From: a virus
Lineage: Duplodnaviria > Caudoviricetes
Length of the DNA: 64,000 nucleotides
IMG/VR virus record: IMGVR_UViG_3300023218_000003
Span: 10,592 to 74,591 of that record
Strand: one strand, 5' to 3'
Each line of letters begins with the position of its first letter. The first letter of the stretch is position 1. The notes beneath the pieces were generated by a model. It saw only the letters and a program-made list of their open reading frames with translations. It did no database searches and was not told the DNA's origin. Shown one piece after another: positions 1-49,830 of the stretch. The translations under genes and the position numbers were made by a program.

Positions 1-72
1 GGGATCGGCAAGTCGACTGCGAACGCAATCAGAAATGGTCTGTATGATCATCTGCTTGAAGCGGAGAAATAG
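1..72 (+). CDS. 3' end of a gene truncated by the window edge; helix-hairpin-helix motif
   Basis: Frame 1 reads GIGKSTANAIRNGLYDHLLEAEK-TAG; GIGxxTA is the HhH signature. Confidence 0.5.
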   Translation, partial: GIGKSTANAIRNGLYDHLLEAEK

Positions 73-1950: not shown

Positions 1951-2187
1951 ATGTCGAATACTGTAGAACGCGACCCAAGAAACGACCCACGAACGAGCGA
2001 TGTGGTCGAGCGCATCAGCACGACGTCGGGCAACCCGCTGCGACGCATCGTCGTCATGCGGGACGGGATGCAAGTCTTCTACAAGACAAGCGTCGACGGC
2101 GACGTGCTGAAGTGCTGGGTCATGACTTGGCGCGAATGGGCAATCGACTGCGACGTCAAGCAGATCGGCGATCAGATTGTCGAATAG
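1951..2187 (+). CDS. hypothetical protein
   Basis: ORF with typical codon usage; TAG stop. Confidence 0.55.
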   Translation: MSNTVERDPRNDPRTSDVVERISTTSGNPLRRIVVMRDGMQVFYKTSVDGDVLKCWVMTWREWAIDCDVKQIGDQIVE

Positions 2188-3625: not shown

Positions 3626-3879
3626 CACTGACAGAAAAACTGATCGCGATCGCGATCGTCGTCTTCATGTGTGTGATCGCTGCTGCGATCGGCGGCTTCA
3701 TCGTCTTCGTGAACATGCACGAAATCGTCATCTATCTTGACGACGAACAACGCGACGACATCGAAGAAGTGAATCAACTGCATCGCGAACACGCGCAAGC
3801 GTATCGCGCAAGAACTGAAGAACATGAAGACGACACTGATCACAGCGCTGCTGATGACGTGCGCACTGACGCACGCTGA
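3622..3879 (+). CDS. small membrane protein
   Basis: N-terminal TM segment LIAIAIVVFMCVIAAAIGGFIVFV. Confidence 0.55.
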   Translation: MTLTEKLIAIAIVVFMCVIAAAIGGFIVFVNMHEIVIYLDDEQRDDIEEVNQLHREHAQAYRARTEEHEDDTDHSAADDVRTDAR

Positions 3880-4111
3880 ACACGAAGAAGACGAAGTGCA
3901 GACTGACAGTCGCGGTCGCGAACTGCCCGTGCTGATGCCGAAGCACGTCGACGAAGACGGGCACGCAGCGACACACGCAGACATGATCGATCCGCTGCAC
4001 GCTGCGTCGCTGCTGTTCCCTGACGATCTGATCGAACAGATCGAATGCGAACACGAAGCTGAAGAATCGCAACGCAGACAGCGTCGCTTCAGACTCAACA
4101 CGAAGAAATGA
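3824..4111 (+). CDS. hypothetical secreted protein
   Basis: Signal-peptide-like MKTTLITALLMTCALTHA. Confidence 0.45.
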   Translation: MKTTLITALLMTCALTHAEHEEDEVQTDSRGRELPVLMPKHVDEDGHAATHADMIDPLHAASLLFPDDLIEQIECEHEAEESQRRQRRFRLNTKK

Positions 4112-4116
4112 CTTTC

Positions 4117-4188
4117 GCGCACGTGGCTGACTGGTAAAGCGATCGACTCTAAATCGACGACATGCGGGTTCGAATCCCGCCGTGCGCA
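4117..4188 (+). tRNA. tRNA with CUA anticodon (amber suppressor, tRNA-Sup)
   Basis: Cloverleaf: acceptor GCGCACG/CGTGCGC + A73; D arm GCT-GACTGGTAA-AGC; anticodon arm ATCGA-CT(CTA)AA-TCGAC, anticodon at 4149-4151; T arm GCGGG-TTCGAAT-CCCGC; CCA not encoded. Confidence 0.88.
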
Positions 4189-4214
4189 TCACACAGCAAA
4201 AACAAGAACAACAC

Positions 4215-4478
4215 ATGAAGAAGAACACGTTCAAGCATCAGCTTGGAAAAGAAGCAAGATCGAAGACGACGAAGCTGAAAGGCATTCTGACAGCGCGCAG
4301 CGAAAATCTGTATGGCTGCAATCGATACTTCGTTCAGCCGCCAGTCGACAAAGATCAGAAACTTCCCGATGGCTGGTGGCACGACGAAGACGACATCGAA
4401 GTCATCGGCGACGGCGTCGACGCGAAGCGCAGCGAAGACAAGAATCAGAACGGCGGGCCGATCAGCAAGTCGAAATAG
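4215..4478 (+). CDS. hypothetical protein
   Basis: ORF after tRNA; TAG stop. Confidence 0.65.
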   Translation: MKKNTFKHQLGKEARSKTTKLKGILTARSENLYGCNRYFVQPPVDKDQKLPDGWWHDEDDIEVIGDGVDAKRSEDKNQNGGPISKSK

Positions 4479-4562: not shown

Positions 4563-5219
4563 ATGAAATTGAAAGAACTGACATCAAACGCGCTGCATGA
4601 CAGCAGCTTCGTGCCTGACGAACTTGTCGGGCAACACGTATCGATCCCCGATCGCACATCTTCGCTGAACGTCTATCGCGTGAACGAAGACAAGTCGCTG
4701 ACTGAAGTGCTGCCGAAGAACAAGAAGCGTCGCGTGAAGAAGCGCGTCGACTTTCAGCATCGTGACAAGCGCGCGCTGCTGAAGATCAAGATCAAGTCGC
4801 TTGACGCTGAAATGCGAATCATTCGACTTGAAGAACAGAAGACGCCGTCGCTGTCGCGATACATCGAACTGCGTGCGCATCGCAAAGCACTGGGACAGAA
4901 GTCGCGTGCTGCGCAGCTTGCGCTTGCGTTCATTCGCGGTCGACGCATCGAACAAGTCGAGTCGCTTCCCGCGCCGACGACGATCAATTCGTTCGAACGA
5001 CCCGCAGACGTTGCGCGTCTGCTTGCTGACGTGCGAAAGAACATCATGACGTTCGCTGACAATCCCGAATCAGTGTCGACTGACGACGATCACGAACGCT
5101 GGCTTCGTGAAGCATCTGACTTCTTGATTCACGCAAAAGTCTACAGCGGCAGAGAAGGCGGCATCAGCAGCATCAGTGACGATGACGCGCTTCATGACTT
5201 GCGACTTGCGACAGCGTGA
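4563..5219 (+). CDS. conserved phage hypothetical protein
   Basis: LKIKIKSLDAEMRIIRLEE..HR..RAAQLALAFIRG resembles a recurrent phage family (from memory). Confidence 0.6.
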   Translation: MKLKELTSNALHDSSFVPDELVGQHVSIPDRTSSLNVYRVNEDKSLTEVLPKNKKRRVKKRVDFQHRDKRALLKIKIKSLDAEMRIIRLEEQKTPSLSRYIELRAHRKALGQKSRAAQLALAFIRGRRIEQVESLPAPTTINSFERPADVARLLADVRKNIMTFADNPESVSTDDDHERWLREASDFLIHAKVYSGREGGISSISDDDALHDLRLATA

Positions 5220-6034
5220 CGATAGATTTCGGCGCACTTCTCGACAGCGTGCGGCGCATACGGGAAGAAGAAGCCGTGATTGAACAGCTTCTGTGCTGAC
5301 AGCACGCACTGACTGCGCTTGATCTTCACAAGCTTCGAAAGACGTTCGTCGTTCATCCAAGCGCAGCGCAGCTTCAGCGCTTCAGCGATGTCGCGAGTCG
5401 TGACGAAGTGCGGGTTCGTCGCGTGAAAGATGCCCGAAGCGAAGTGCTTCTTGCGAATGATGAACAAGATCAGCGAAGTCAGATCGTCGACGCACGTGAC
5501 GCTGTTCTTGTGATTCACAAGCGTCGAATACTTCGACAGCTTGCTGAACAGATTGCGATCGTGAACGCGACCGTCGAACGGCAGTCTGATGCGCAAACTG
5601 ATCGGTTCATGTGCGTTTCGCATCGCGAATGTTTCAGCAAGAATCTTCGTCTGACGATAGACGCCCGTCAGAAGATTCGGCTGATCATCTTCAGTGAATT
5701 CGCAGAATTCGTCGCCGTCGAACACGCAGCCTGTCGACAAGTGAATCAGTCGCGTGTTCGTGACTGACGATGCGTCTGTGATCATGCGTGCAAGATCAAG
5801 ATTGTCGCGCATCGTGATTTCGACATGATCTTCACAGTCATCGATGTTCTTCTGACCTGCGAAGCCTGCTGCGTTGATCACGAAGTCGCACGCGCTGATC
5901 TGATCTGCGATCTGTTCTTCAGTCTTCGTCTGTTCGCGCGACAGCACGTGAAGTTCGATGCTGTGTTCTGCTAGTTTCTCGGCGATTGCGCTGCCGATGT
6001 ATCCGCTTCCGATGATTGCAATGTGTCGTTCCAT
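5192..6034 (-). CDS. NDP-4-keto-6-deoxyglucose 3,5-epimerase/4-reductase (NRS/ER, RmlD-like extended SDR; rhamnose synthesis)
   Basis: IIGSGYIG Rossmann motif; NAAGFAGQKNIDDCE, STGCVF, catalytic YRQTK, LRIRLP, RNLFSKL, NSVTCVDD, GIFHATNP follow the NRS/ER motif series. Confidence 0.85.
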   Translation of the reverse strand: MERHIAIIGSGYIGSAIAEKLAEHSIELHVLSREQTKTEEQIADQISACDFVINAAGFAGQKNIDDCEDHVEITMRDNLDLARMITDASSVTNTRLIHLSTGCVFDGDEFCEFTEDDQPNLLTGVYRQTKILAETFAMRNAHEPISLRIRLPFDGRVHDRNLFSKLSKYSTLVNHKNSVTCVDDLTSLILFIIRKKHFASGIFHATNPHFVTTRDIAEALKLRCAWMNDERLSKLVKIKRSQCVLSAQKLFNHGFFFPYAPHAVEKCAEIYRHAVASRKS

Positions 6035-7087: not shown

Positions 7088-7204
7088 CTTGAAACATGCC
7101 ACGTTTCAAAATCGATGATGTTCCGCCGCATGTAGCGATTCGCGCAGATCAAGATCAGCAGCAGCAGCGCGAACGACACTTCAGCAGGCAGCGGCGCACG
7201 CACT

Positions 7205-7732
7205 GTGCTTGTGCAAGGTGTCGACTCTGACATGATCGAAATCAGTGAAGCTGTCACGCTGAACGGTCAGACAGCAGTCACTACGACGAACACGTTCAAG
7301 TGCGTCACGAAGATCACAGTCACGTCAGCAGGCGCGACGGGTTCGAACGAAGGCGTCATCTACGCGAGAAGCGGCACTGTCACTGCTGGTGTCCCTGCTA
7401 CGTTCTACGGTTCAATCGAAATCGGAACGAACATCAGCGCGATCGCAGTTCTGTTCGTGCCGAAAGATCACATCTTCGTCGTGTCACAAATTTTCACATC
7501 GATCGGGGATTCATCGAAGACACGGAACTTCAACTTCAAGCAATACGTGCCCGCGACTGGACTGTGGCTGGAAGCGTTCGACGTTCACACGAAAGAAGCT
7601 GAATTCTTGCTGCCTGTTGTCGCGTATCCCGCACTTGTCGAAGGCAGTGTCATCGATCTGAATGTCGCAGTCGACACAGGCACAGCGAAAGTCACAGCGT
7701 CACTTGCAGGCTATCTGATCGCGCAGCGATGA
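7205..7732 (+). CDS. virion structural-type protein; 5' end disrupted
   Basis: SSSSANDTSAGSGARTVLVQG motif begins upstream of this GTG; in-frame TAG at 7133-7135; promoter-proximal ATG 7096 is in another frame. Confidence 0.6.
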   Translation: MLVQGVDSDMIEISEAVTLNGQTAVTTTNTFKCVTKITVTSAGATGSNEGVIYARSGTVTAGVPATFYGSIEIGTNISAIAVLFVPKDHIFVVSQIFTSIGDSSKTRNFNFKQYVPATGLWLEAFDVHTKEAEFLLPVVAYPALVEGSVIDLNVAVDTGTAKVTASLAGYLIAQR

Positions 7733-8952: not shown

Positions 8953-9501
8953 TCACTTGCGCGAGAAGACAAGACCGCGCGCACGAATGAATTCACGCTT
9001 CATCGTCGAAGCGCCGCGCAGTCGCATCGTCAGTGCTTGATCAAGTGCGAAGCCGAAGTTCGCGAACAGTTCGATCCAGTATGTCGACGGCTGACAGTTC
9101 ACGTGATGATGACCGCGCTTTTTCGGCGGCGCTGCACTGATCACAAGATACTGCGGCGTCACGACAGTCATCAGACTGATCACGTTCGGCAAGAACTTCG
9201 CTTCGACGTGTTCCAAGAATTCGACGGACCACACGAAGTCGAAGTGTCGAAAGATCACATCGTCAGTGCAGACGCCTTTCGTGAAGTCGTGCAGAACGTC
9301 GGGCTTGCAGTTCACGTCACCGTCGACGCCGACTGCATCGATCTTCAGTTCGCGTGCAAGACGAACCTGACCGCCGGGGTCGCACCCGACATCGATCATC
9401 GACTTGCAGTTCAGATCGTCGCGCATGAATTCAAGCGCACCTTGATCTGTGTGCGTGATGTTCTGATGACCGCCAAGATGTTTCGGTGTATCTTTCGCCA
9501 T
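8953..9501 (-). CDS. class I SAM-dependent methyltransferase
   Basis: HLGGH, MIDVGCDPGG (motif I with G>D), VGVDGD, WSVEFLEHV, GHHHVNCQ. Confidence 0.8.
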   Translation of the reverse strand: MAKDTPKHLGGHQNITHTDQGALEFMRDDLNCKSMIDVGCDPGGQVRLARELKIDAVGVDGDVNCKPDVLHDFTKGVCTDDVIFRHFDFVWSVEFLEHVEAKFLPNVISLMTVVTPQYLVISAAPPKKRGHHHVNCQPSTYWIELFANFGFALDQALTMRLRGASTMKREFIRARGLVFSRK

Positions 9502-13282: not shown

Positions 13283-13650
13283 AACGAATCATGAACAACG
13301 AACTGAAAGCACAGCTTCAAGCAGTGCGCGCAGACATTCGCGCGCTTGAACTTCAACTGAAGGCGATCGAAGCGCAGAAAGCACAGCGCATCTTCATGAC
13401 AGCGTGTCAGCGAATGCGTGCGCGCAAAGCGTATCGCGACGCGATCAAGATCAGAAAGCATCGCATTGCTGCACTTCGCGGCAGAATCGACATGCTTGAA
13501 GAACAGATCGGCGGCGCAGTCATTCACGCATTCGAACAGGGTGCAGACTTCGGCGAGAAGAACGAAGCAGAGTATCGCGCGACAGGGAACCCGCTTGATT
13601 CGACAAGCACACGCGCGATCAAGCACGCACAGCAGATCGAAGGACTATGA
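13279..13650 (+). CDS. hypothetical coiled-coil protein
   Basis: ATGA overlaps at both ends. Confidence 0.6.
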   Translation: MKRIMNNELKAQLQAVRADIRALELQLKAIEAQKAQRIFMTACQRMRARKAYRDAIKIRKHRIAALRGRIDMLEEQIGGAVIHAFEQGADFGEKNEAEYRATGNPLDSTSTRAIKHAQQIEGL

Positions 13651-13976
13651 ACACAGAAGCAATCATCATCGTGTCAGCAGTGCTGACGTTCGCAACGCTG
13701 TTGCTGATCGCTGTCATCGCGGTCGTCGACTATGTGCGACGCAGTCGAAGCGAAGCGAAGCGACGAATCCCGAAAGCGGGCGAAACGTGGATCAGTGGCG
13801 ACGAAGACGGTTCGCCGTGGTATGTGTCGCCGCAGCGACAGTGGACAGTCACAGTGATCGACGTGCGTGACGACTGGGTTCGCTACAAGTTCGACGGCAA
13901 GAACTGCTTGTTTCAAGATGAACGTCTGCCGATCGATCGCTTCTTGTCAGTTTACAAGCTGAAGACTGTCGACTAG
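13647..13976 (+). CDS. membrane-anchored hypothetical protein
   Basis: N-terminal TM helix; TAG stop. Confidence 0.6.
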   Translation: MNTEAIIIVSAVLTFATLLLIAVIAVVDYVRRSRSEAKRRIPKAGETWISGDEDGSPWYVSPQRQWTVTVIDVRDDWVRYKFDGKNCLFQDERLPIDRFLSVYKLKTVD

Positions 13977-14229: not shown

Positions 14230-14904
14230 ATGGCAACGACGCAATCGAAGAAGCGATCACGCAGCGTGTCGATCGAAACTGAAGACGCAGATGACAGCAA
14301 GAAGATCGCTGCGCTTCGCGTAGAACGACGCAAGCTGCGAACGCTGAAGGCGCACTCGAAGAATCCGCGCAAGCATCCGAAGAAAGGCAGTGACGAATGG
14401 GAAGCGCTGCGCGTTTCACTCGCTGACCAATACTTCGACCCGATCGTGTTCAACGAACGCAACGGAATGCTGATCAGCGGTCATCTTCGAAAGAAGATTC
14501 TGATCGATGACGGCTTCGTCGAAGCTGACTGCGTAATCGTCGACTGCGATGAAGAAACGCCCGTCGCATTTCTTGCATACGTCAGACAGCCGCATCAGCA
14601 CGCGAAGAACTTGATGCGCGGTCATCGCACAGTCGTCATGCCCGACTTTCAGGGAATGGGACTCGGCGTCAAACTGTCTGACTGGCTCGCGAATCATCTT
14701 GTGCAGAAAGGCTGGCGATACACTTCAGTCACGTCGCACTCTGCGATGATTCACTATCGTCTGAAGTCGCCCGACTGGAAGTGCATTCGTCGCGCGTCGC
14801 ACGTAGCGAAAGGATCGAAGAACGCGAAGATTCACGCAGCAGCAGGTTCGCAACAGCGCTTGACGTATTCGTTCGAATACATCGGCAAGAAGAACAAGTC
14901 ATGA
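14230..14904 (+). CDS. ParB/Srx-like domain fused to GNAT (Mom-like) acetyltransferase domain
   Basis: N-term KNPRKH..DPIVFNERNGMLISGHLR (ParB-like); C-term HRTVVMPDFQGMGLG (GNAT acetyl-CoA loop). Confidence 0.7.
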   Translation: MATTQSKKRSRSVSIETEDADDSKKIAALRVERRKLRTLKAHSKNPRKHPKKGSDEWEALRVSLADQYFDPIVFNERNGMLISGHLRKKILIDDGFVEADCVIVDCDEETPVAFLAYVRQPHQHAKNLMRGHRTVVMPDFQGMGLGVKLSDWLANHLVQKGWRYTSVTSHSAMIHYRLKSPDWKCIRRASHVAKGSKNAKIHAAAGSQQRLTYSFEYIGKKNKS

Positions 14905-15834: not shown

Positions 15835-15855
15835 CAACAACAACACAGCGAAGAA

Positions 15856-16233
15856 ATGACAGAAGAATACGATCTGAACTACAGAATCGAAGAAGCAGCA
15901 TCAGTCGCTGACGGCACTGAAGCAGAAGTCTTCTTCACGCAAGTCGCGACGTTCATGAAACAGTTCGCAGACAACGGCGGCTTCACACATCGCTTCGAAC
16001 GCGAAGCAGAAGTCGTGAAGCATCATTCTGCGCCAGTGTAGCAGCAGACGCAACTTCACTTTGTCGGCATCGGTCTGCCGCAAGGCGACGTGATCATCAT
16101 GACGCGACACGGACATCCGATGCGCTTCTATTCTCGCGAAGCAGTCGTCGGCTACATCGAAGCGAACGCTGATCGAATGATTCATTCGGGCTTGTTTCAC
16201 GTCACGAACGGACACGCAACGCAGATCGTCTGA
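15856..16233 (+). CDS. hypothetical protein with in-frame TAG (16039-16041); candidate amber read-through
   Basis: 61 codons, TAG, then 63 more open codons in frame to TGA 16231-16233. Confidence 0.45.
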
Positions 16234-16343
16234 AAAAAGTTTCGACTACATAGTGCGCTGTAGTGCGCACGTGTGCGCTGTCTTCATCAGCGCGCAGATT
16301 TCGTCTGGACGAACTGTCATCGTCGACAGTATCTTGCCGCTGC

Positions 16344-21430: not shown

Positions 21431-22174
21431 ATGTCAGACGCGCAACAATCAGAAACTAAAGTGACGACGCAGCAGCTAGGGAAACGCGTCGGCGAACTTG
21501 AAGTCGACGTCAAGAATCTGACGAAGTCAGTCGGTGATCTTTCGACTGTTGCAGCATCGACACAGCAACAAGTGAACATGCTGACGCAAGGTCAGACTGC
21601 GCAAAGCGAAAAACTTGATCGTCTTCTTGCACGTACTGCTGGCGGCGAAGCGACGAAGGGAATGATCCCAGTGTCGTATGTCACATGGGGAATCGGCGCG
21701 TTTCTGACGCTTGCTGGACTCGGTCTTTCGATCACGACGATCGGCGGCGCAGTCGTCTTGTTCGCAGTGAACAGCGGCGACAAGCAGTCATCTGCGAAGA
21801 TCGAATCGATCAGCAAGCTTGAACGCGCACACATCGATCACGTGAATGAAACGATCGATCTGCGCGTCGCTACTGTCGAAGACGAAATCAACGAGAACAC
21901 AGCGAACGTCGAACGCATCGATCACGAATACCTGCCGACGACACAGTTCGATCGTTTCATCGATACTGAATTCTTGCCGCTTCGTGATCGAATGACAGAA
22001 GCAGAAGTGAAAGAAGCACGCAACGACGAACGCATTCAGAAGACGTGGGAAGAAATCGTCGATCACGAAGACGAACTTGATCATCCGATTCGTCAGACTT
22101 ACGAACTTGAAGGTCTGAAGAAGCTGCTTGATGAACAGCGCAGTCACGATCACGAAAGCGCTGGAAACGAATAG
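21431..22174 (+). CDS. membrane-anchored coiled-coil protein
   Basis: Central TM segment flanked by coiled coils; TAG stop. Confidence 0.6.
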   Translation: MSDAQQSETKVTTQQLGKRVGELEVDVKNLTKSVGDLSTVAASTQQQVNMLTQGQTAQSEKLDRLLARTAGGEATKGMIPVSYVTWGIGAFLTLAGLGLSITTIGGAVVLFAVNSGDKQSSAKIESISKLERAHIDHVNETIDLRVATVEDEINENTANVERIDHEYLPTTQFDRFIDTEFLPLRDRMTEAEVKEARNDERIQKTWEEIVDHEDELDHPIRQTYELEGLKKLLDEQRSHDHESAGNE

Positions 22175-24685: not shown

Positions 24686-25171
24686 ATGAAATACGCACAA
24701 GTCGTTTACAAAGGGGCCGATGATCGCATCGGACGATTCGGAACCGTCAAGACCGGCGACACAATCACGCTGACCGAAAGCGAATACGACTGCGTTCGCG
24801 AAGATTCGCGATACGAATTCAAGCAATGGGTCGACGCTGAAGCGCGCAACGTGAAACCCGCACAGACGGACACGGAAAACACTCGCGACGCGCGCAGCGA
24901 AGGCACGCCGTCAGAACCGTCAGAACCGTCGCGCGTCACGCAAGACGTCGAAGAAGGCATCGAAGTCGTTCGTGTCGACGAAGACGAAGACGAAGACGAA
25001 GGCGGCGAAGAAATCGAAAGCTACGACGAACTGACCGTTAAAGAACTGAACGCTGAAATCGACGCACGCAACGAACTGCTTGACGAAGAAGATCAGATCG
25101 TGCCTGACGGCAAGAAGAAAGCTGATCTGATCGCAGCGCTTGAAGCGAACGACGAAGCTGAAGGCGACTGA
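24686..25171 (+). CDS. acidic late protein with C-terminal HeH/SAP-like motif
   Basis: YDELTVKEL..KKADLIAALE; follows late promoter. Confidence 0.6.
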   Translation: MKYAQVVYKGADDRIGRFGTVKTGDTITLTESEYDCVREDSRYEFKQWVDAEARNVKPAQTDTENTRDARSEGTPSEPSEPSRVTQDVEEGIEVVRVDEDEDEDEGGEEIESYDELTVKELNAEIDARNELLDEEDQIVPDGKKKADLIAALEANDEAEGD

Positions 25172-36063: not shown

Positions 36064-36750
36064 ATGGCGAAGAAATACGCAGACAAAGAAACTGAACGCG
36101 CAGTCGAAGAAGAAGACGCGAAGCTTGATCAGACTTCGAACAAGCTTGGGCTTTTCGCAGACGTCGACGATGATGGTGAAGAAGTGATCGACGACGAACG
36201 CGAACGCGGAACAGAACGCGACATGCTGGGAGTCGCAGTCAAGGTGCATCGATTCAAGATTCGCCCGCTGACTCTGTCCGCGTTCGCGTTGCTGCGACAG
36301 ATCGACAGCGCGTTTCTGACGTTCACGCCGATTCTGTCGAACGACGATCGCGATGCGCTTCTTGAACTTGCAGAGAAGCCGAAGCGCAGCGACGTCGAAG
36401 AAAAGCGATACATGAAGCTGATCGCGATGGCGAAAGCTGAAAGCGAAATGATTCAGAATCCATACTTGGAGACGCTGAAGTTCATGGCGCTGATGACTGT
36501 CGAAGTCGACGAAGAAGAAGCTGAAGACTTGGCATTCGCAGACGACAACGGGCGCGCACTGCGTCGCGCTGCTTTCGAATTCGGCGAACAGATCGAAGCA
36601 AACGAAATGGACGATCTGACGACTGCGATCGGCATTGCAGTCGGAGAAGCGCAACAGTCGAAAGTCGTGCCTACTAAAAAAAAGGGTCCGCGTCACACAG
36701 CAGTGAAGAAAAAGGCAACGCGTTCGCGCCGACGTTCATTGCGCAAATAG
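36064..36750 (+). CDS. tail assembly chaperone (G)
   Basis: Precedes TMP; slippery AAAAAAAAG at 36676-36684. Confidence 0.75.
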   Translation: MAKKYADKETERAVEEEDAKLDQTSNKLGLFADVDDDGEEVIDDERERGTERDMLGVAVKVHRFKIRPLTLSAFALLRQIDSAFLTFTPILSNDDRDALLELAEKPKRSDVEEKRYMKLIAMAKAESEMIQNPYLETLKFMALMTVEVDEEEAEDLAFADDNGRALRRAAFEFGEQIEANEMDDLTTAIGIAVGEAQQSKVVPTKKKGPRHTAVKKKATRSRRRSLRK

Positions 36751-48145: not shown

Positions 48146-49066
48146 ATGACGGACATTCTTCGCAATATGGGACGACGCGACGAAGCTGATACAGCAAAAG
48201 ACAGATTCGAAAGACCGAAGAAGACGCCGTTGACGGACTGGCTTCCGTATCGCGGCGTCAATCTTCACAAGTCGTGGCAGGGGCCAGACAAAGTGAAGCC
48301 GTGGCATCGACAAGTCACGATTGCGGTTCCGTTTCTCGACACTAGCGAAACACTCGACACGCTGATCGAATCGTGGCTTCTTCAGACGATCGACGCGAAC
48401 ATCGTCATCATCGACACGGGTTCGTCTTCGCGTCACATGGGTCTGCTTGACGAATACGAACGCACTGACCCGCGAATCGAAGTTCATCGTCTTCGATTCA
48501 AAGCAGTGAAGCATCCGTCTGATCCCGTCGCGATCGCGATGGACTTGGCATTCTCGCTGTGTTCGACCGACTATCTGTTCGCGACGCACGCTGACTGCTT
48601 TCCCGCACGACGCAATCTGATTGAAGACATGATTCAGATTCGTCACGACACGAATGCGCCTGTCGTCGGCTATCAGATCACAGATCGCGAGAACATCAAC
48701 ACGAAGGGATGGGTCGGACACACAGCGACGCTGTTCGACATGCAGCAAGCTGATCTTCTGAATCTTGCATGGTCACAGCGCAGATACTGTCATCTGACGG
48801 GAATGGATCACTTCGGCAACAACAGATGCAACGGCTACCCCGACACAGAATTCTTGATCAACGAACAGCTTGATCGCGCGAACGTGAAACGCGCAATCAT
48901 CGGCTACGAATCGAACTACGTCACAACAGACGACGACAACATTCTTCACGTGCGCAGCTACGGTTCTTCGAAGCTGTATTCAAAGCAGCACTTTCAACGT
49001 GCAAACGGTGACATGGCTGATGCGTTGCGCGTGACGCAGCAGAGAATCAAAGAATGGACATCATGA
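48146..49066 (+). CDS. glycosyltransferase family 2-like
   Basis: VTIAVPFLD, IVIIDTGSS, YLFATHADCF (DxD-position), YPDTE. Confidence 0.8.
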   Translation: MTDILRNMGRRDEADTAKDRFERPKKTPLTDWLPYRGVNLHKSWQGPDKVKPWHRQVTIAVPFLDTSETLDTLIESWLLQTIDANIVIIDTGSSSRHMGLLDEYERTDPRIEVHRLRFKAVKHPSDPVAIAMDLAFSLCSTDYLFATHADCFPARRNLIEDMIQIRHDTNAPVVGYQITDRENINTKGWVGHTATLFDMQQADLLNLAWSQRRYCHLTGMDHFGNNRCNGYPDTEFLINEQLDRANVKRAIIGYESNYVTTDDDNILHVRSYGSSKLYSKQHFQRANGDMADALRVTQQRIKEWTS

Positions 49067-49830
49067 AGCACGGAGAAGAAACAGCAGAAGAAATCGAAGC
49101 AGCATTCGTCGGCGTGAACAACGGCGTCGCAGCACTTAGCGAATGCAGACGCACACGACCGACACTGATCAGCGGCACTGGGCGCAGCGGCACGACAGCA
49201 CTTGCACGCTGCTTCTTGAATAGCGACGACGTCAAGTTCGTCACGCAAGATGAAACTGACGGCAGCAATCTTGAAGTCGCTGAACTGAACAAAGCACTTG
49301 CTGCGCATGACAAAGTCGCATGGGCTGAATTCATTCGAAAGTCTTCTGAAGAAGTCGCGCATGATTTCGTCTTCAAGAATCCGCGATTCGAAATCCATGC
49401 GTTGCGTGAAGATTCTGATGACTTCAGTGAAGTGCTTCGCGACTGCAACGTGATCGTGATGACGCGCGATCCGTTTCTTGTCGCGACTCGCGAATGGTCG
49501 ATTCACGCACGTCGAAACGCTGAAGAAAAGGGACGCACATTCGGCGATCACGTGCGCAAGTGCTGCGCTGTTCTTGGGCTTTCGATGAAAGGCGCAATCG
49601 AACTGTCGAAATCGATGGGCGTGCTTCTCGTTTCGTATGAAAAGCTGATCACGCAGCCGCAGCAAGTCGCTGACGAAATCAACGTGTGGTTCGGTCGCGA
49701 ACGTCTGACGAAGAAAGCGATCCCGAAGTCGATCATGCCGAACAACCCGTATTATCTGGAACGTCAGACGCTTGGCTGGATGCGTCAGATGAAAGACATG
49801 AAAGAACGTCGCGCGCGCGGCGAACGCTGA
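49054..49830 (+). CDS. sulfotransferase
   Basis: 5'-PSB ISGTGRSGTT, FKNP, 3'-PB MTRDPF, VSYEKL; possible C-terminal extension to 49975 in +1 frame. Confidence 0.82.
   Translation: MDIMKHGEETAEEIEAAFVGVNNGVAALSECRRTRPTLISGTGRSGTTALARCFLNSDDVKFVTQDETDGSNLEVAELNKALAAHDKVAWAEFIRKSSEEVAHDFVFKNPRFEIHALREDSDDFSEVLRDCNVIVMTRDPFLVATREWSIHARRNAEEKGRTFGDHVRKCCAVLGLSMKGAIELSKSMGVLLVSYEKLITQPQQVADEINVWFGRERLTKKAIPKSIMPNNPYYLERQTLGWMRQMKDMKERRARGER

What the first reader, a model, noticed from the sequence alone, without database searches (positions are those of the whole stretch)
4117..4188. Amber-suppressor tRNA (anticodon CUA) in a phage that otherwise uses the standard code
Seen: a canonical 72-nt cloverleaf with anticodon loop CU-CUA-AA, G1:C72, A73, short variable loop and an A27/C43 mismatch. 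Long essential genes (TerL, portal, MCP, TMP, PolA) have no internal TAG, so this is not genome-wide code-15 recoding. TAG ends only a few ORFs (72, 2187, 4478, 13976, 16041, 22174, 36750); most end in TGA. Inference: the tRNA gives timed read-through of selected phage genes, or disrupts termination of host TAG-ending genes. It might also be an early stage of stop-codon reassignment.
Basis: partly seen in the sequence, partly recalled or inferred. Interest (0 to 1): 0.8.

Follow-up and report, generated by a model that had tools for sequence, protein, structure and literature searches.

The report
Orphan amber-suppressor tRNA in standard-code phage
A 74.6-kb uncultured phage that uses the normal genetic code carries, as its only tRNA, a well-formed tRNA that should read the UAG stop codon; the same puzzle is already published for cultured Stenotrophomonas phages, and here too no convincing target gene was found.

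Summary
Window 4117-4188 (+) is a canonical 72-nt tRNA with anticodon CUA (ARAGORN; Rfam 64 bits). It is the only tRNA in the 74,591-bp genome.

The phage uses the standard code. Coding density is 92.5%, stops are TGA 88 / TAA 10 / TAG 7, and no conserved gene has an in-frame TAG. TAG swaps with TGA at homologous gene ends in relatives. Three of the seven TAG stops lie at the family's natural C-terminus.

The tRNA looks built for efficient suppression: a C32-U33-CUA-A37-A38 loop and a 27:43 mismatch. The suppressor tRNAs of Stenotrophomonas phages Summit and DLP_3 have the same features.

No release factor, synthetase or Pth2 gene is present. An apparent "ATG...TAG" gated gene at 7133 turned out to be an off-frame triplet in a gene broken by a deletion.

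One target remains possible. The 63 codons after the TAG at 16041 are strongly coding-like in frame, but they have no homologs, and the upstream domain's homologs are stand-alone 61-64 aa proteins.

This is a new member of a known kind (Summit paper 2022; Borges et al. 2021). This scan has noted similar tRNAs in about 300 other genomes.

The parts
4117..4188 (+). tRNA with anticodon CUA (4149-4151). Class I, 72 nt, no encoded CCA, with A27.C43 and G13.A22 mismatches. Sole tRNA of the genome.
   Evidence: ARAGORN; Rfam 64.1 bits; whole-genome scans
3824..4111 (+). Upstream 95-aa ORF of unknown function. Its TGA ends 5 nt before the tRNA, so the tRNA sits inside a + strand transcription unit. 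It is unrelated to the gene upstream of Summit's suppressor tRNA.
4215..4478 (+). 87-aa phrog_16275 gene that starts 26 nt after the tRNA and ends in TAG. This TAG is a true terminator.
   Evidence: Full-length PHROG match; 21 homologs end in the same alignment column
1..72 (+). 3' end of a 99-aa gene (it starts 227 nt before the window) that ends in TAG. The 76-codon extension scores as non-coding.
1951..2187 (+). TAG-terminated small gene (61-78 aa depending on the start). It is in frame with gene 2341-2964, but the 51-codon spacer is non-coding (-0.07 per codon) and holds a terminator-like hairpin at 2197-2215.
13647..13976 (+). TAG-terminated 109-aa gene with a backup TGA 3 codons later. 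The gene is absent from relatives L002 and L003.
15856..16041 (+). TAG-terminated 61-aa gene just upstream of terL. Homologs are stand-alone 61-64 aa proteins that end in TGA in L002 and L003.
16042..16233 (+). 63-codon in-frame ORFan extension after the TAG; the only plausible read-through target. Coding score is 0.40 per codon overall and 0.54 for the 16 codons before the first GTG (16090). It lies in a segment (about 16001-16342) missing from L002 and L003.
21461..22174 (+). TAG-terminated 237-aa gene between the portal and head-morphogenesis genes. Relative L004 has TAG at the same position. The extension overlaps the next gene out of frame (-0.49 per codon).
36064..36750 (+). TAG-terminated 228-aa gene upstream of the tape-measure gene. 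The extension is 11 codons and non-coding.

Best explanation
This is a genuine, probably functional amber-suppressor tRNA carried as the only tRNA of a phage that otherwise uses the standard code. Shown: the gene is a high-scoring canonical tRNA with CUA in the anticodon register. It lies 5 nt after one + strand gene and 26 nt before the next. The genome uses TAG only as a rare terminator. Inferred: (1) It is co-transcribed with its neighbours, cut out by host RNase P and 3' nucleases, and given CCA by the host enzyme, since CCA is not encoded. (2) It is charged by a host synthetase, because the phage encodes none. My own knowledge of E. coli amber suppressors is that those with U35 are usually taken by LysRS or GlnRS. 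The acceptor and T arm also resemble tRNA-Leu, so the amino acid remains open. (3) It reads UAG efficiently. It has the C32-U33-CUA-A37-A38 loop with an A31-U39 closing pair, and an unpaired 27:43 position. That unpairing was shown experimentally to raise UAG read-through by CUA suppressors and can also allow UAA reading (PMC13092985). (4) On the phage side it can only add C-terminal tails to at most seven proteins. Six of these tails look like noise. The one at 15856-16233 would turn a 61-aa protein next to terL into a 125-aa protein, and I take it as the most likely dedicated phage target (about 0.3). Otherwise the tRNA acts on host or competitor UAG stops, or it has no dedicated target, as in the pre-recoding state proposed by Borges et al.
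For: The tRNA is real. Standard code: 92.5% coding density; stops TGA 86+2 / TAA 10 / TAG 7; the read-through screen found no in-frame TAG whose extension has homolog support, on either strand; stops interchange between relatives, for example window 24686-25171 TGA against L004 TAG, and 15856-16041 TAG against L002/L003 TGA. Suppressor-type design: the 13-nt anticodon arm CGACUCUAAAUCG is identical to that of the Summit and DLP_3 suppressor tRNAs, while the acceptor and T stems differ by compensated changes. Both types also have a 27:43 mismatch (A.C here, C.A there). The effect of 27:43 unpairing is documented in PMC13092985. No phage release factor, Pth2, GlnRS/GluRS or LysRS-class enzyme in six-frame searches, with working controls, and none among the long proteins scanned. 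Candidate target: the in-frame codons after the TAG at 16041 are the top outlier of 38 post-stop stretches (0.54 against at most 0.16 per codon), and there is no ATG, GTG or TTG for 16 codons.
Against: There is no evidence of expression, processing or charging. Reads could not be examined, so an assembly error at the anticodon is not formally excluded. No relative covering the tRNA region was found, so conservation of CUA within this lineage is unknown. The 16041 extension has no homolog anywhere. The upstream domain's homologs are stand-alone 61-64 aa proteins. GTG 16090 and ATG 16099 could start an independent small gene. The isotype signals conflict: Leu-like acceptor and T arm, tRNA(CAU)-like body, Lys-like loop. 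The genome is estimated at only 85% complete, so a real target could lie in a missing part.
Confidence: 0.6

Rival explanations
1. Pre-recoding (or post-recoding) intermediate. TAG has become rare as a stop, a suppressor tRNA has been acquired, and no dedicated target exists yet. This is the state that Borges et al. place just before in-frame TAGs appear in late genes.
For: Borges et al. (bioRxiv 10.1101/2021.08.26.457843) describe the path stop-codon loss, then suppressor tRNA, then recoding, and show a standard-code phage with a suppressor tRNA. Here TAG ends only 7 of 105 genes and occurs only 68 times on the + strand. No dedicated target was proven.
Against: TAG is rare here because of general TA avoidance at 54% GC (TA observed/expected 0.20; TAA is even rarer), not because of the low GC invoked in the model. 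No available relative (L002-L005) shows recoding, and L005 uses TAG freely as a stop. The cultured phages Summit and DLP_3 keep such a tRNA without recoding, which points to a stable function rather than a transient state.
Confidence: 0.2
2. Host- or competitor-directed tool. The tRNA reads through UAG stops of host genes, or of co-infecting phages and defence genes, and perturbs them to the phage's benefit. The phage protects itself by using almost only TGA.
For: 84% of the phage's genes (88 of 105) end in TGA, so it is largely insulated from its own suppressor. The tRNA sits among small early-type genes, is the only tRNA kept, and has features of high efficiency.
Against: The TGA bias follows from genome-wide TA avoidance, and TAA is rare too. 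Seven phage genes still end in TAG without nearby backup stops: median extension is 63 codons, against 16 for TGA genes. From my own knowledge, laboratory amber-suppressor strains grow well, so the harm to a host would be mild. The host is unknown and nothing could be tested.
Confidence: 0.2
3. Not a working suppressor: an assembly or sequencing error in the anticodon, or a decaying or neutral tRNA gene (a former sense tRNA).
For: Reads could not be inspected. There is no lineage relative with which to compare the anticodon. The minimum-energy fold of the bare sequence is not a cloverleaf, which is common for tRNAs.
Against: 64 bits over the full model with only one flagged pair. The loop context (A37, A38, A31-U39) is the one suited to an anticodon ending in A36, and it is identical to two independently sequenced cultured-phage suppressors. 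The nearest sense tRNA bodies (CAU type) would need two changes to give CUA. A sole surviving tRNA is unlikely to be junk.
Confidence: 0.07
4. A pyrrolysine tRNA, which is the label ARAGORN gives it.
For: ARAGORN prints 'tRNA-Pyl' for any CUA anticodon.
Against: The tRNA has G18G19, a standard TTCGAAT T-loop, a 5-nt variable loop and a 5-position anticodon stem. From my own knowledge, tRNA-Pyl has a 3-nt variable loop, a small D-loop without G18G19 and a 6-bp anticodon stem. No synthetase of any class was found in the genome.
Confidence: 0.01

Closest known systems
Predicted amber-suppressor tRNA of Stenotrophomonas siphophages Summit (MZ326862, CPT_Summit_070) and DLP_3 (MT110073, DLP3_153), genus Delepquintavirus
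   Same: Standard-code siphophages with a CUA tRNA. The D-arm core, the whole anticodon arm and the T-loop are identical, and both have G1:C72 and a 27:43 mismatch. A similar share of genes ends in TAG (12 of 148 against 7 of 105). No in-frame read-through target and no synthetase were found; the authors state that the purpose 'remains unknown' (PMC9022506). The phages share a replication-module AAA ATPase family with this one.
   Different: Overall identity is only 77%. Summit's tRNA lies in a cluster of five tRNAs, whereas here it is the sole tRNA. The flanking genes are unrelated. The Summit type looks derived from an atypical tRNA-Lys(CUU), while this body is closer to a tRNA(CAU) type with a Leu-like acceptor, so the origins may be independent. 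TerL is only about 25% identical to that of any cultured phage.
Suppressor tRNA(CUA) of TAG-recoded ('code 15') phages such as crAss-like, Lak and Garnet (Borges et al., bioRxiv 10.1101/2021.08.26.457843; PMC11210395; PMC9523058)
   Same: A phage-encoded CUA tRNA with no phage synthetase and presumed charging by a host enzyme. The Borges model explicitly includes standard-code phages that have already acquired a suppressor tRNA.
   Different: Here no conserved gene has an in-frame TAG, coding density under table 11 is 92.5%, there is no RF2, and GC is 54% with TGA-dominated stops rather than low GC with TAA-dominated stops.
Laboratory CUA suppressors with an unpaired 27:43 position (tRNA-Thr(CUA) with G27-A43; tRNA-Trp su7 variants), as summarised in PMC13092985
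   Same: A CUA anticodon combined with a 4-bp anticodon stem, which raised UAG read-through and allowed UAA reading.
   Different: Those are engineered or mutant E. coli tRNAs. Here the feature is natural and recurs in two phage lineages. Its effect in this tRNA has not been tested.
Suppressor tRNA plus 'amber-gated' neighbour gene (early UAG, often Pth2-like), as noted by earlier agents of this scan in other phages (unpublished AI notes)
   Same: An orphan CUA tRNA in a standard-code phage.
   Different: No gene here has an early in-frame UAG. The one look-alike, at 7133, is an off-frame triplet in a gene broken by a deletion. No PTH2 domain is present.

Membership tests
tRNA (Rfam RF00005) | Cloverleaf covariance-model score above the gathering threshold (29 bits) over the full model | tested here: met
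   64.1 bits, model positions 1-71 of 71, E 1.3e-11; ARAGORN
tRNA (Rfam RF00005) | Conserved tertiary-interaction nucleotides: U8, A14, G18G19, T54-psi55-C56, and a 7-nt anticodon loop with U33 | tested here: met
   Read directly from the sequence and the Rfam alignment
Amber-suppressor tRNA (Sup-CUA) | Anticodon 5'-CUA-3' at positions 34-36 in the canonical register | tested here: met
   cta at 4149-4151 in the middle of the 7-nt loop CUCUAAA
Amber-suppressor tRNA (Sup-CUA) | Is expressed, aminoacylated and inserts an amino acid at UAG | not testable with these tools
Needs tRNA-seq, an acid-gel assay or an amber reporter.
Amber-suppressor tRNA (Sup-CUA) | CUA anticodon conserved in relatives | tested here: inconclusive
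   No lineage relative covering the locus was found. CUA is conserved in the distant Summit/DLP_3 type.
Code-15 (TAG to Gln) recoded phage | In-frame TAG codons in conserved genes, aligned with sense residues of homologs | tested here: not met
   None in TerL, portal, MCP, TMP, PolA, helicase or ATPase. The genome-wide screens leave only 16041, which has no homolog support.
Code-15 (TAG to Gln) recoded phage | Low coding density under table 11 that rises when TAG is read as sense | tested here: not met
   92.5% under table 11. The relatives gain nothing from TAG=sense.
tRNA-Pyl | 3-nt variable loop, small D-loop lacking G18G19, 6-bp anticodon stem, with PylRS present | tested here: not met
   5-nt variable loop, G18G19 present, 5-position stem; no synthetase found. 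The tRNA-Pyl features are from my own knowledge.
Suppressor tRNA with amber-gated partner gene (earlier notes of this scan) | A nearby conserved gene with UAG within its first few codons | tested here: not met
   Screen of all TAGs. The candidate at 7133 was rejected by homolog alignment and tblastn.
Suppressor tRNA with amber-gated partner gene (earlier notes of this scan) | Linked Pth2-like (peptidyl-tRNA-hydrolase-like) gene | tested here: not met
   PF01981 is absent in a six-frame search, and the control genomes are positive
Programmed stop-codon read-through gene | In-frame extension after the stop that is coding and conserved | tested here: inconclusive
   16042-16233 is coding-like (0.40-0.54 per codon, top of 38) but is an ORFan absent from L002 and L003. 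The fold was uninformative.

The most novel reading that the evidence does not exclude
The tRNA is the key to a single natural amber switch. The UAG at 16039-16041, in a phage-specific insertion directly upstream of terL, is read through only when the phage's own suppressor tRNA is present, giving a 125-aa protein in addition to the 61-aa one. A second, compatible reading is that restriction-driven TA avoidance at mid GC is a previously unrecognised route to stop-codon scarcity that sets up recoding.
Probability: 0.2. Interest if true: 0.55.

Novelty: new member of a known kind. Interest (0 to 1): 0.3.

Why it matters
Orphan suppressor tRNAs in standard-code phages are a recognised but unexplained oddity. 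The Summit authors wrote that the purpose is unknown, and Borges et al. treat such phages as possible stepping stones to recoding.

This phage adds a clean, minimal case:
- one tRNA only, and only seven TAG stops;
- an extreme TGA bias;
- a suppressor whose anticodon arm and 27:43 mismatch match those of an unrelated cultured phage, which suggests selection for efficient UAG reading.

It also supplies one concrete target that can be tested by proteomics (15856-16233). It does not change what is known: there is no recoding, no new machinery, and the function is still unproven.

Tried and rejected

Searches for relatives carrying the tRNA region, all empty:
- tRNA patterns in IMG/VR and in metagenomes;
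- neighbouring proteins in IMG/VR and in metagenomes;
- blastn against cultured phages.
- TerL relatives L002-L005 are fragments without the region.
- Phages that share only the small phrog_16275 gene carry ordinary tRNAs and no CUA.
- Five cultured phages that share the AAA ATPase have no tRNA at all (positive control).

Rejected readings:
- Amber-gated gene at 7115-7135 ('ATG ATG .. ATG TAG' in frame with 7205-7732). Homologs showed that the real N-terminus starts at ATG 7096 in another frame, and that about 44 codons are deleted out of frame, so this TAG is an off-frame triplet.
- Read-through fusion at 2187. The spacer is non-coding and holds a terminator-like hairpin.
- Minus-strand TAG candidates. 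All are antisense shadows of + strand genes.

Inconclusive tests:
- The AlphaFold2 model of the 125-aa read-through product had pLDDT 38 and is uninformative.
- The isotype could not be assigned. Pattern and BLAST comparisons gave conflicting nearest neighbours: tRNA-Leu(UAA) for the acceptor and T arm, tRNA(CAU) for the body, tRNA-Lys for the Summit type.
- The host could not be identified; the atlas search of the RmlD-like gene returned only viral clusters.
- The single-sequence minimum-energy fold is not a cloverleaf, which is not informative for tRNAs.

Full report
**1.

ARAGORN reports a single tRNA in the window, at 4117-4188 on the + strand, with anticodon cta. Rfam's tRNA model matches all 71 positions at 64.1 bits (E 1.3e-11; gathering score 29). 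It flags only one non-canonical pair, 27:43.

Read from the sequence:
- acceptor stem GCGCACG / CGUGCGC with G1:C72 and discriminator A73;
- U8, G9;
- D-arm GCUG-ACUGGUA-AAGC, with G13.A22 and G18G19 present;
- anticodon stem A27.C43, U28-A42, C29-G41, G30-C40, A31-U39;
- anticodon loop C32-U33-C34-U35-A36-A37-A38;
- a 5-nt variable loop and T-arm GCGGG-UUCGAAU-CCCGC;
- no encoded CCA (TCA follows A73).

The window is bases 10592-74591 of a 74,591-bp IMG/VR virus record, which CheckV estimates at 85% complete. This is the only tRNA in the whole record.

**2. The phage uses the standard code**

All but two genes lie on the + strand. Codon bias is extreme, so I built a codon log-odds model and called 103 + strand genes: 86 end in TGA, 10 in TAA and 7 in TAG. 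Two minus-strand genes also end in TGA: an RmlD-like reductase at 5192-6034 and a methyltransferase at 8953-9501.

- Coding density under table 11 is 92.5%.
- Of the 68 TAG triplets on the + strand, 7 are stops, 42 are off-frame inside genes and 19 are intergenic.
- TerL, portal, a head-morphogenesis protein, the capsid protein, the tape-measure protein, DnaB helicase, PolA and an AAA ATPase are uninterrupted and match their PHROG families.
- TAG behaves as an ordinary stop in the lineage. Between the window and the IMG/VR relatives (TerL 88-93% identical), homologous genes with aligned C-termini swap TAG, TGA and TAA. Examples are 24686-25171 (TGA here, TAG in L004) and 15856-16041 (TAG here, TGA in L002 and L003).
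- None of the relatives gains coding density when TAG is read as sense.
- Six-frame searches found no release factor, Pth2, GlnRS/GluRS or LysRS-class domain, with working positive controls. Pfam scans of twenty long proteins found none either.

**3. Are the seven TAGs read-through sites?**

| TAG ends at | Result |
|---|---|
| 4478 | Gene 26 nt downstream of the tRNA; full-length phrog_16275 match. All 21 aligned homologs end in the same column. True stop. |
| 22174 | L004's homolog ends in TAG at the same position. The extension overlaps the next gene out of frame (-0.49 per codon). |
| 2187 | In frame with the next gene, but the 51-codon spacer is non-coding (-0.07) and holds a terminator-like hairpin at 2197-2215. 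|
| 13976 | Extension of 3 codons. |
| 36750 | Extension of 11 codons. |
| 72 | Extension of 76 codons at -0.09 per codon. |
| 16041 | Open; see below. |

The 63 in-frame codons after the TAG at 16041 score like a real gene (0.40 per codon). The 16 codons before the first possible start (GTG 16090) score 0.54, which is the top of the 38 post-stop intergenic stretches in the genome; the next best is 0.16. The TAG is followed by CAG CAG.

Against read-through at this site:
- Homologs of the upstream domain are stand-alone proteins of 61-64 aa.
- The segment at about 16001-16342 is missing from L002 and L003.
- The extension has no homolog among 1.84 billion representatives or in the 5.8-billion-protein set.
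- The AlphaFold2 model was useless (pLDDT 38).

I put read-through at this site at about 0.3.

**4. A lead from earlier notes, tested and rejected**

Earlier agents of this scan reported, in other phages, orphan CUA tRNAs paired with a neighbouring gene that has a UAG in its first few codons, often a Pth2-like gene. These are unchecked notes, so I screened every TAG for a nearby upstream start and a long coding stretch downstream.

One site fitted: ATG ATG ... ATG TAG at 7115-7135, in frame with 7205-7732. The 23 codons after the TAG even align with the most conserved motif of a roughly 256-aa family (phrog_8198). However, tblastn showed that the family's N-terminus is encoded from ATG 7096 in another frame, that about 44 codons (including a GHSD motif) are missing, and that the rest resumes 2 nt out of frame. 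The gene carries an out-of-frame internal deletion, and the 'TAG' is an off-frame triplet within CAT GTA GCG. Candidates on the minus strand are antisense shadows of + strand genes.

So this phage has no amber-gated gene of that kind and no PTH2 domain.

**5. The tRNA looks designed to suppress**

The only similar tRNA among 50,697 cultured-phage records is the annotated suppressor tRNA of Stenotrophomonas phage Summit. Its relative DLP_3 has the same tRNA at the same position, mislabelled 'tRNA-Glu' although its anticodon is CTA.

The window tRNA and the Summit type are 77% identical overall. They share the D-arm core, all 13 nt of the anticodon arm (CGACUCUAAAUCG) and the T-loop. Their acceptor and T stems differ by compensated changes. 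Both have a mismatch at 27:43 (A.C here, C.A there). PMC13092985 summarises experiments in which unpairing 27:43 made CUA suppressors read UAG more efficiently and let a tRNA-Trp(CUA) read UAA. From my own knowledge, A36-A37-A38 is also the signature for i6A37 modification by MiaA and fits Yarus's 'extended anticodon' for codons that start with U.

The flanking genes of the two phages are unrelated. The nearest sense tRNAs also differ: atypical tRNA-Lys(CUU) for the Summit type, and a tRNA(CAU) body (Pseudanabaena and one IMG/VR phage) with a tRNA-Leu(UAA)-like acceptor and T arm for the window tRNA. The two suppressors may therefore be convergent.

The inserted amino acid cannot be predicted. 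Lys or Gln is the default for CUA tRNAs in E. coli (my own knowledge), and Leu is possible.

**6. Comparison with what is known**

The Summit genome announcement (PMC9022506) reports the same situation: a standard-code siphophage, an amber suppressor tRNA, 12 amber-terminated genes, no in-frame fusion targets, no synthetase, and 'purpose ... remains unknown'. Borges et al. propose stop-codon loss, then suppressor tRNA acquisition, then in-frame recoding of late genes, and they show a standard-code phage that already has a suppressor tRNA. About half of code-15 phages carry Sup-CTA tRNAs (PMC11210395). This scan has about 370 notes of the kind in at least 297 genomes.

What is specific here:
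- It is the sole tRNA of the genome.
- TAG and TAA are rare because TA is avoided genome-wide at 54% GC (observed/expected 0.20), not because GC is low.
- This TA avoidance is shared by the close relatives but not by L005.

**7. Verdict**

This is a real amber-suppressor-type tRNA in a standard-code phage, and a new member of a known, still unexplained kind. Its function is unproven. My ranking of roles is:
- dedicated read-through of 15856-16233: about 0.3;
- no dedicated target (pre-recoding state): about 0.2;
- host- or competitor-directed: about 0.2;
- artefact or relic: under 0.1.

Noticed in passing
window 1-64000 (whole genome): Extreme oligonucleotide avoidance at 54% GC. Observed/expected is 0.20 for TA, 0.26 for CC and 0.43 for GG. 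At least 30 of the 64 six-base palindromes are absent, GTAC occurs once and CCWGG never, while CGATCG, TTCGAA and GTCGAC are 7-9 fold over-represented. Close relatives L002-L004 share the TA depletion; L005 does not. This suggests massive restriction-site avoidance or an unusual mutational or modification regime.
   Followed up: partly
window, all gene starts (e.g. 4194-4214, 15835-15855): 93 of 103 genes have no Shine-Dalgarno-like motif within 18 nt of the start. Leaders are A/C-rich (caacaacaacac...). This points to a host that initiates translation without SD, for example Bacteroidota or Cyanobacteria. The host was not identified.
   Followed up: partly
window 7096-7732: A homolog of a roughly 256-aa family (phrog_8198) is broken by an out-of-frame internal deletion of about 134 nt that removes a conserved GHSD motif. 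The N-terminal 16 residues are in the frame of ATG 7096 and the rest is 2 nt out of frame. The short first ORF ends in an ATGA overlap with ATG 7232, the start of the record's own 166-aa call.
   Followed up: yes
window 16001-16342: This segment is absent from relatives L002 and L003, where the 61-aa gene's homolog abuts terL directly. It carries a new C-terminal tail, the TAG, a 63-codon ORFan, and 110 nt with two more TAGs in a small inverted repeat (16251, 16261).
   Followed up: partly
L093:706-779 (Stenotrophomonas phage DLP_3, MT110073, DLP3_153): The public record annotates this tRNA as tRNA-Glu, but its anticodon is CTA. It is the ortholog of Summit's suppressor tRNA.
   Followed up: yes
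window 48146-49830; 5192-6034(-); 8953-9501(-); 14266-14904: Sugar- and modification-type enzymes: a GT2 glycosyltransferase and a sulfotransferase inside the tail module, an RmlD-like reductase and a methyltransferase as the only minus-strand genes, and a GNAT acetyltransferase. Earlier notes of this scan propose virion glycosylation and sulfation.
   Followed up: no
window 7089-7109: One copy of the TTGAAA...TTTCAA palindrome that earlier notes list genome-wide. It overlaps the real start (ATG 7096) of the broken phrog_8198 gene.
   Followed up: no
L004:4090-6351: In relative L004 the open frame that holds the portal homolog runs about 293 codons past the end of the window's portal gene and ends in TAG. 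The head module therefore differs between close relatives.
   Followed up: no
L014-L068 (Pseudanabaena and other cyanobacterial genomes): A conserved cyanobacterial tRNA(CAU) with C1-G72 has a D-arm identical to the window tRNA and a near-identical variable loop. This may hint at the origin of the tRNA body or at the host group.
   Followed up: partly
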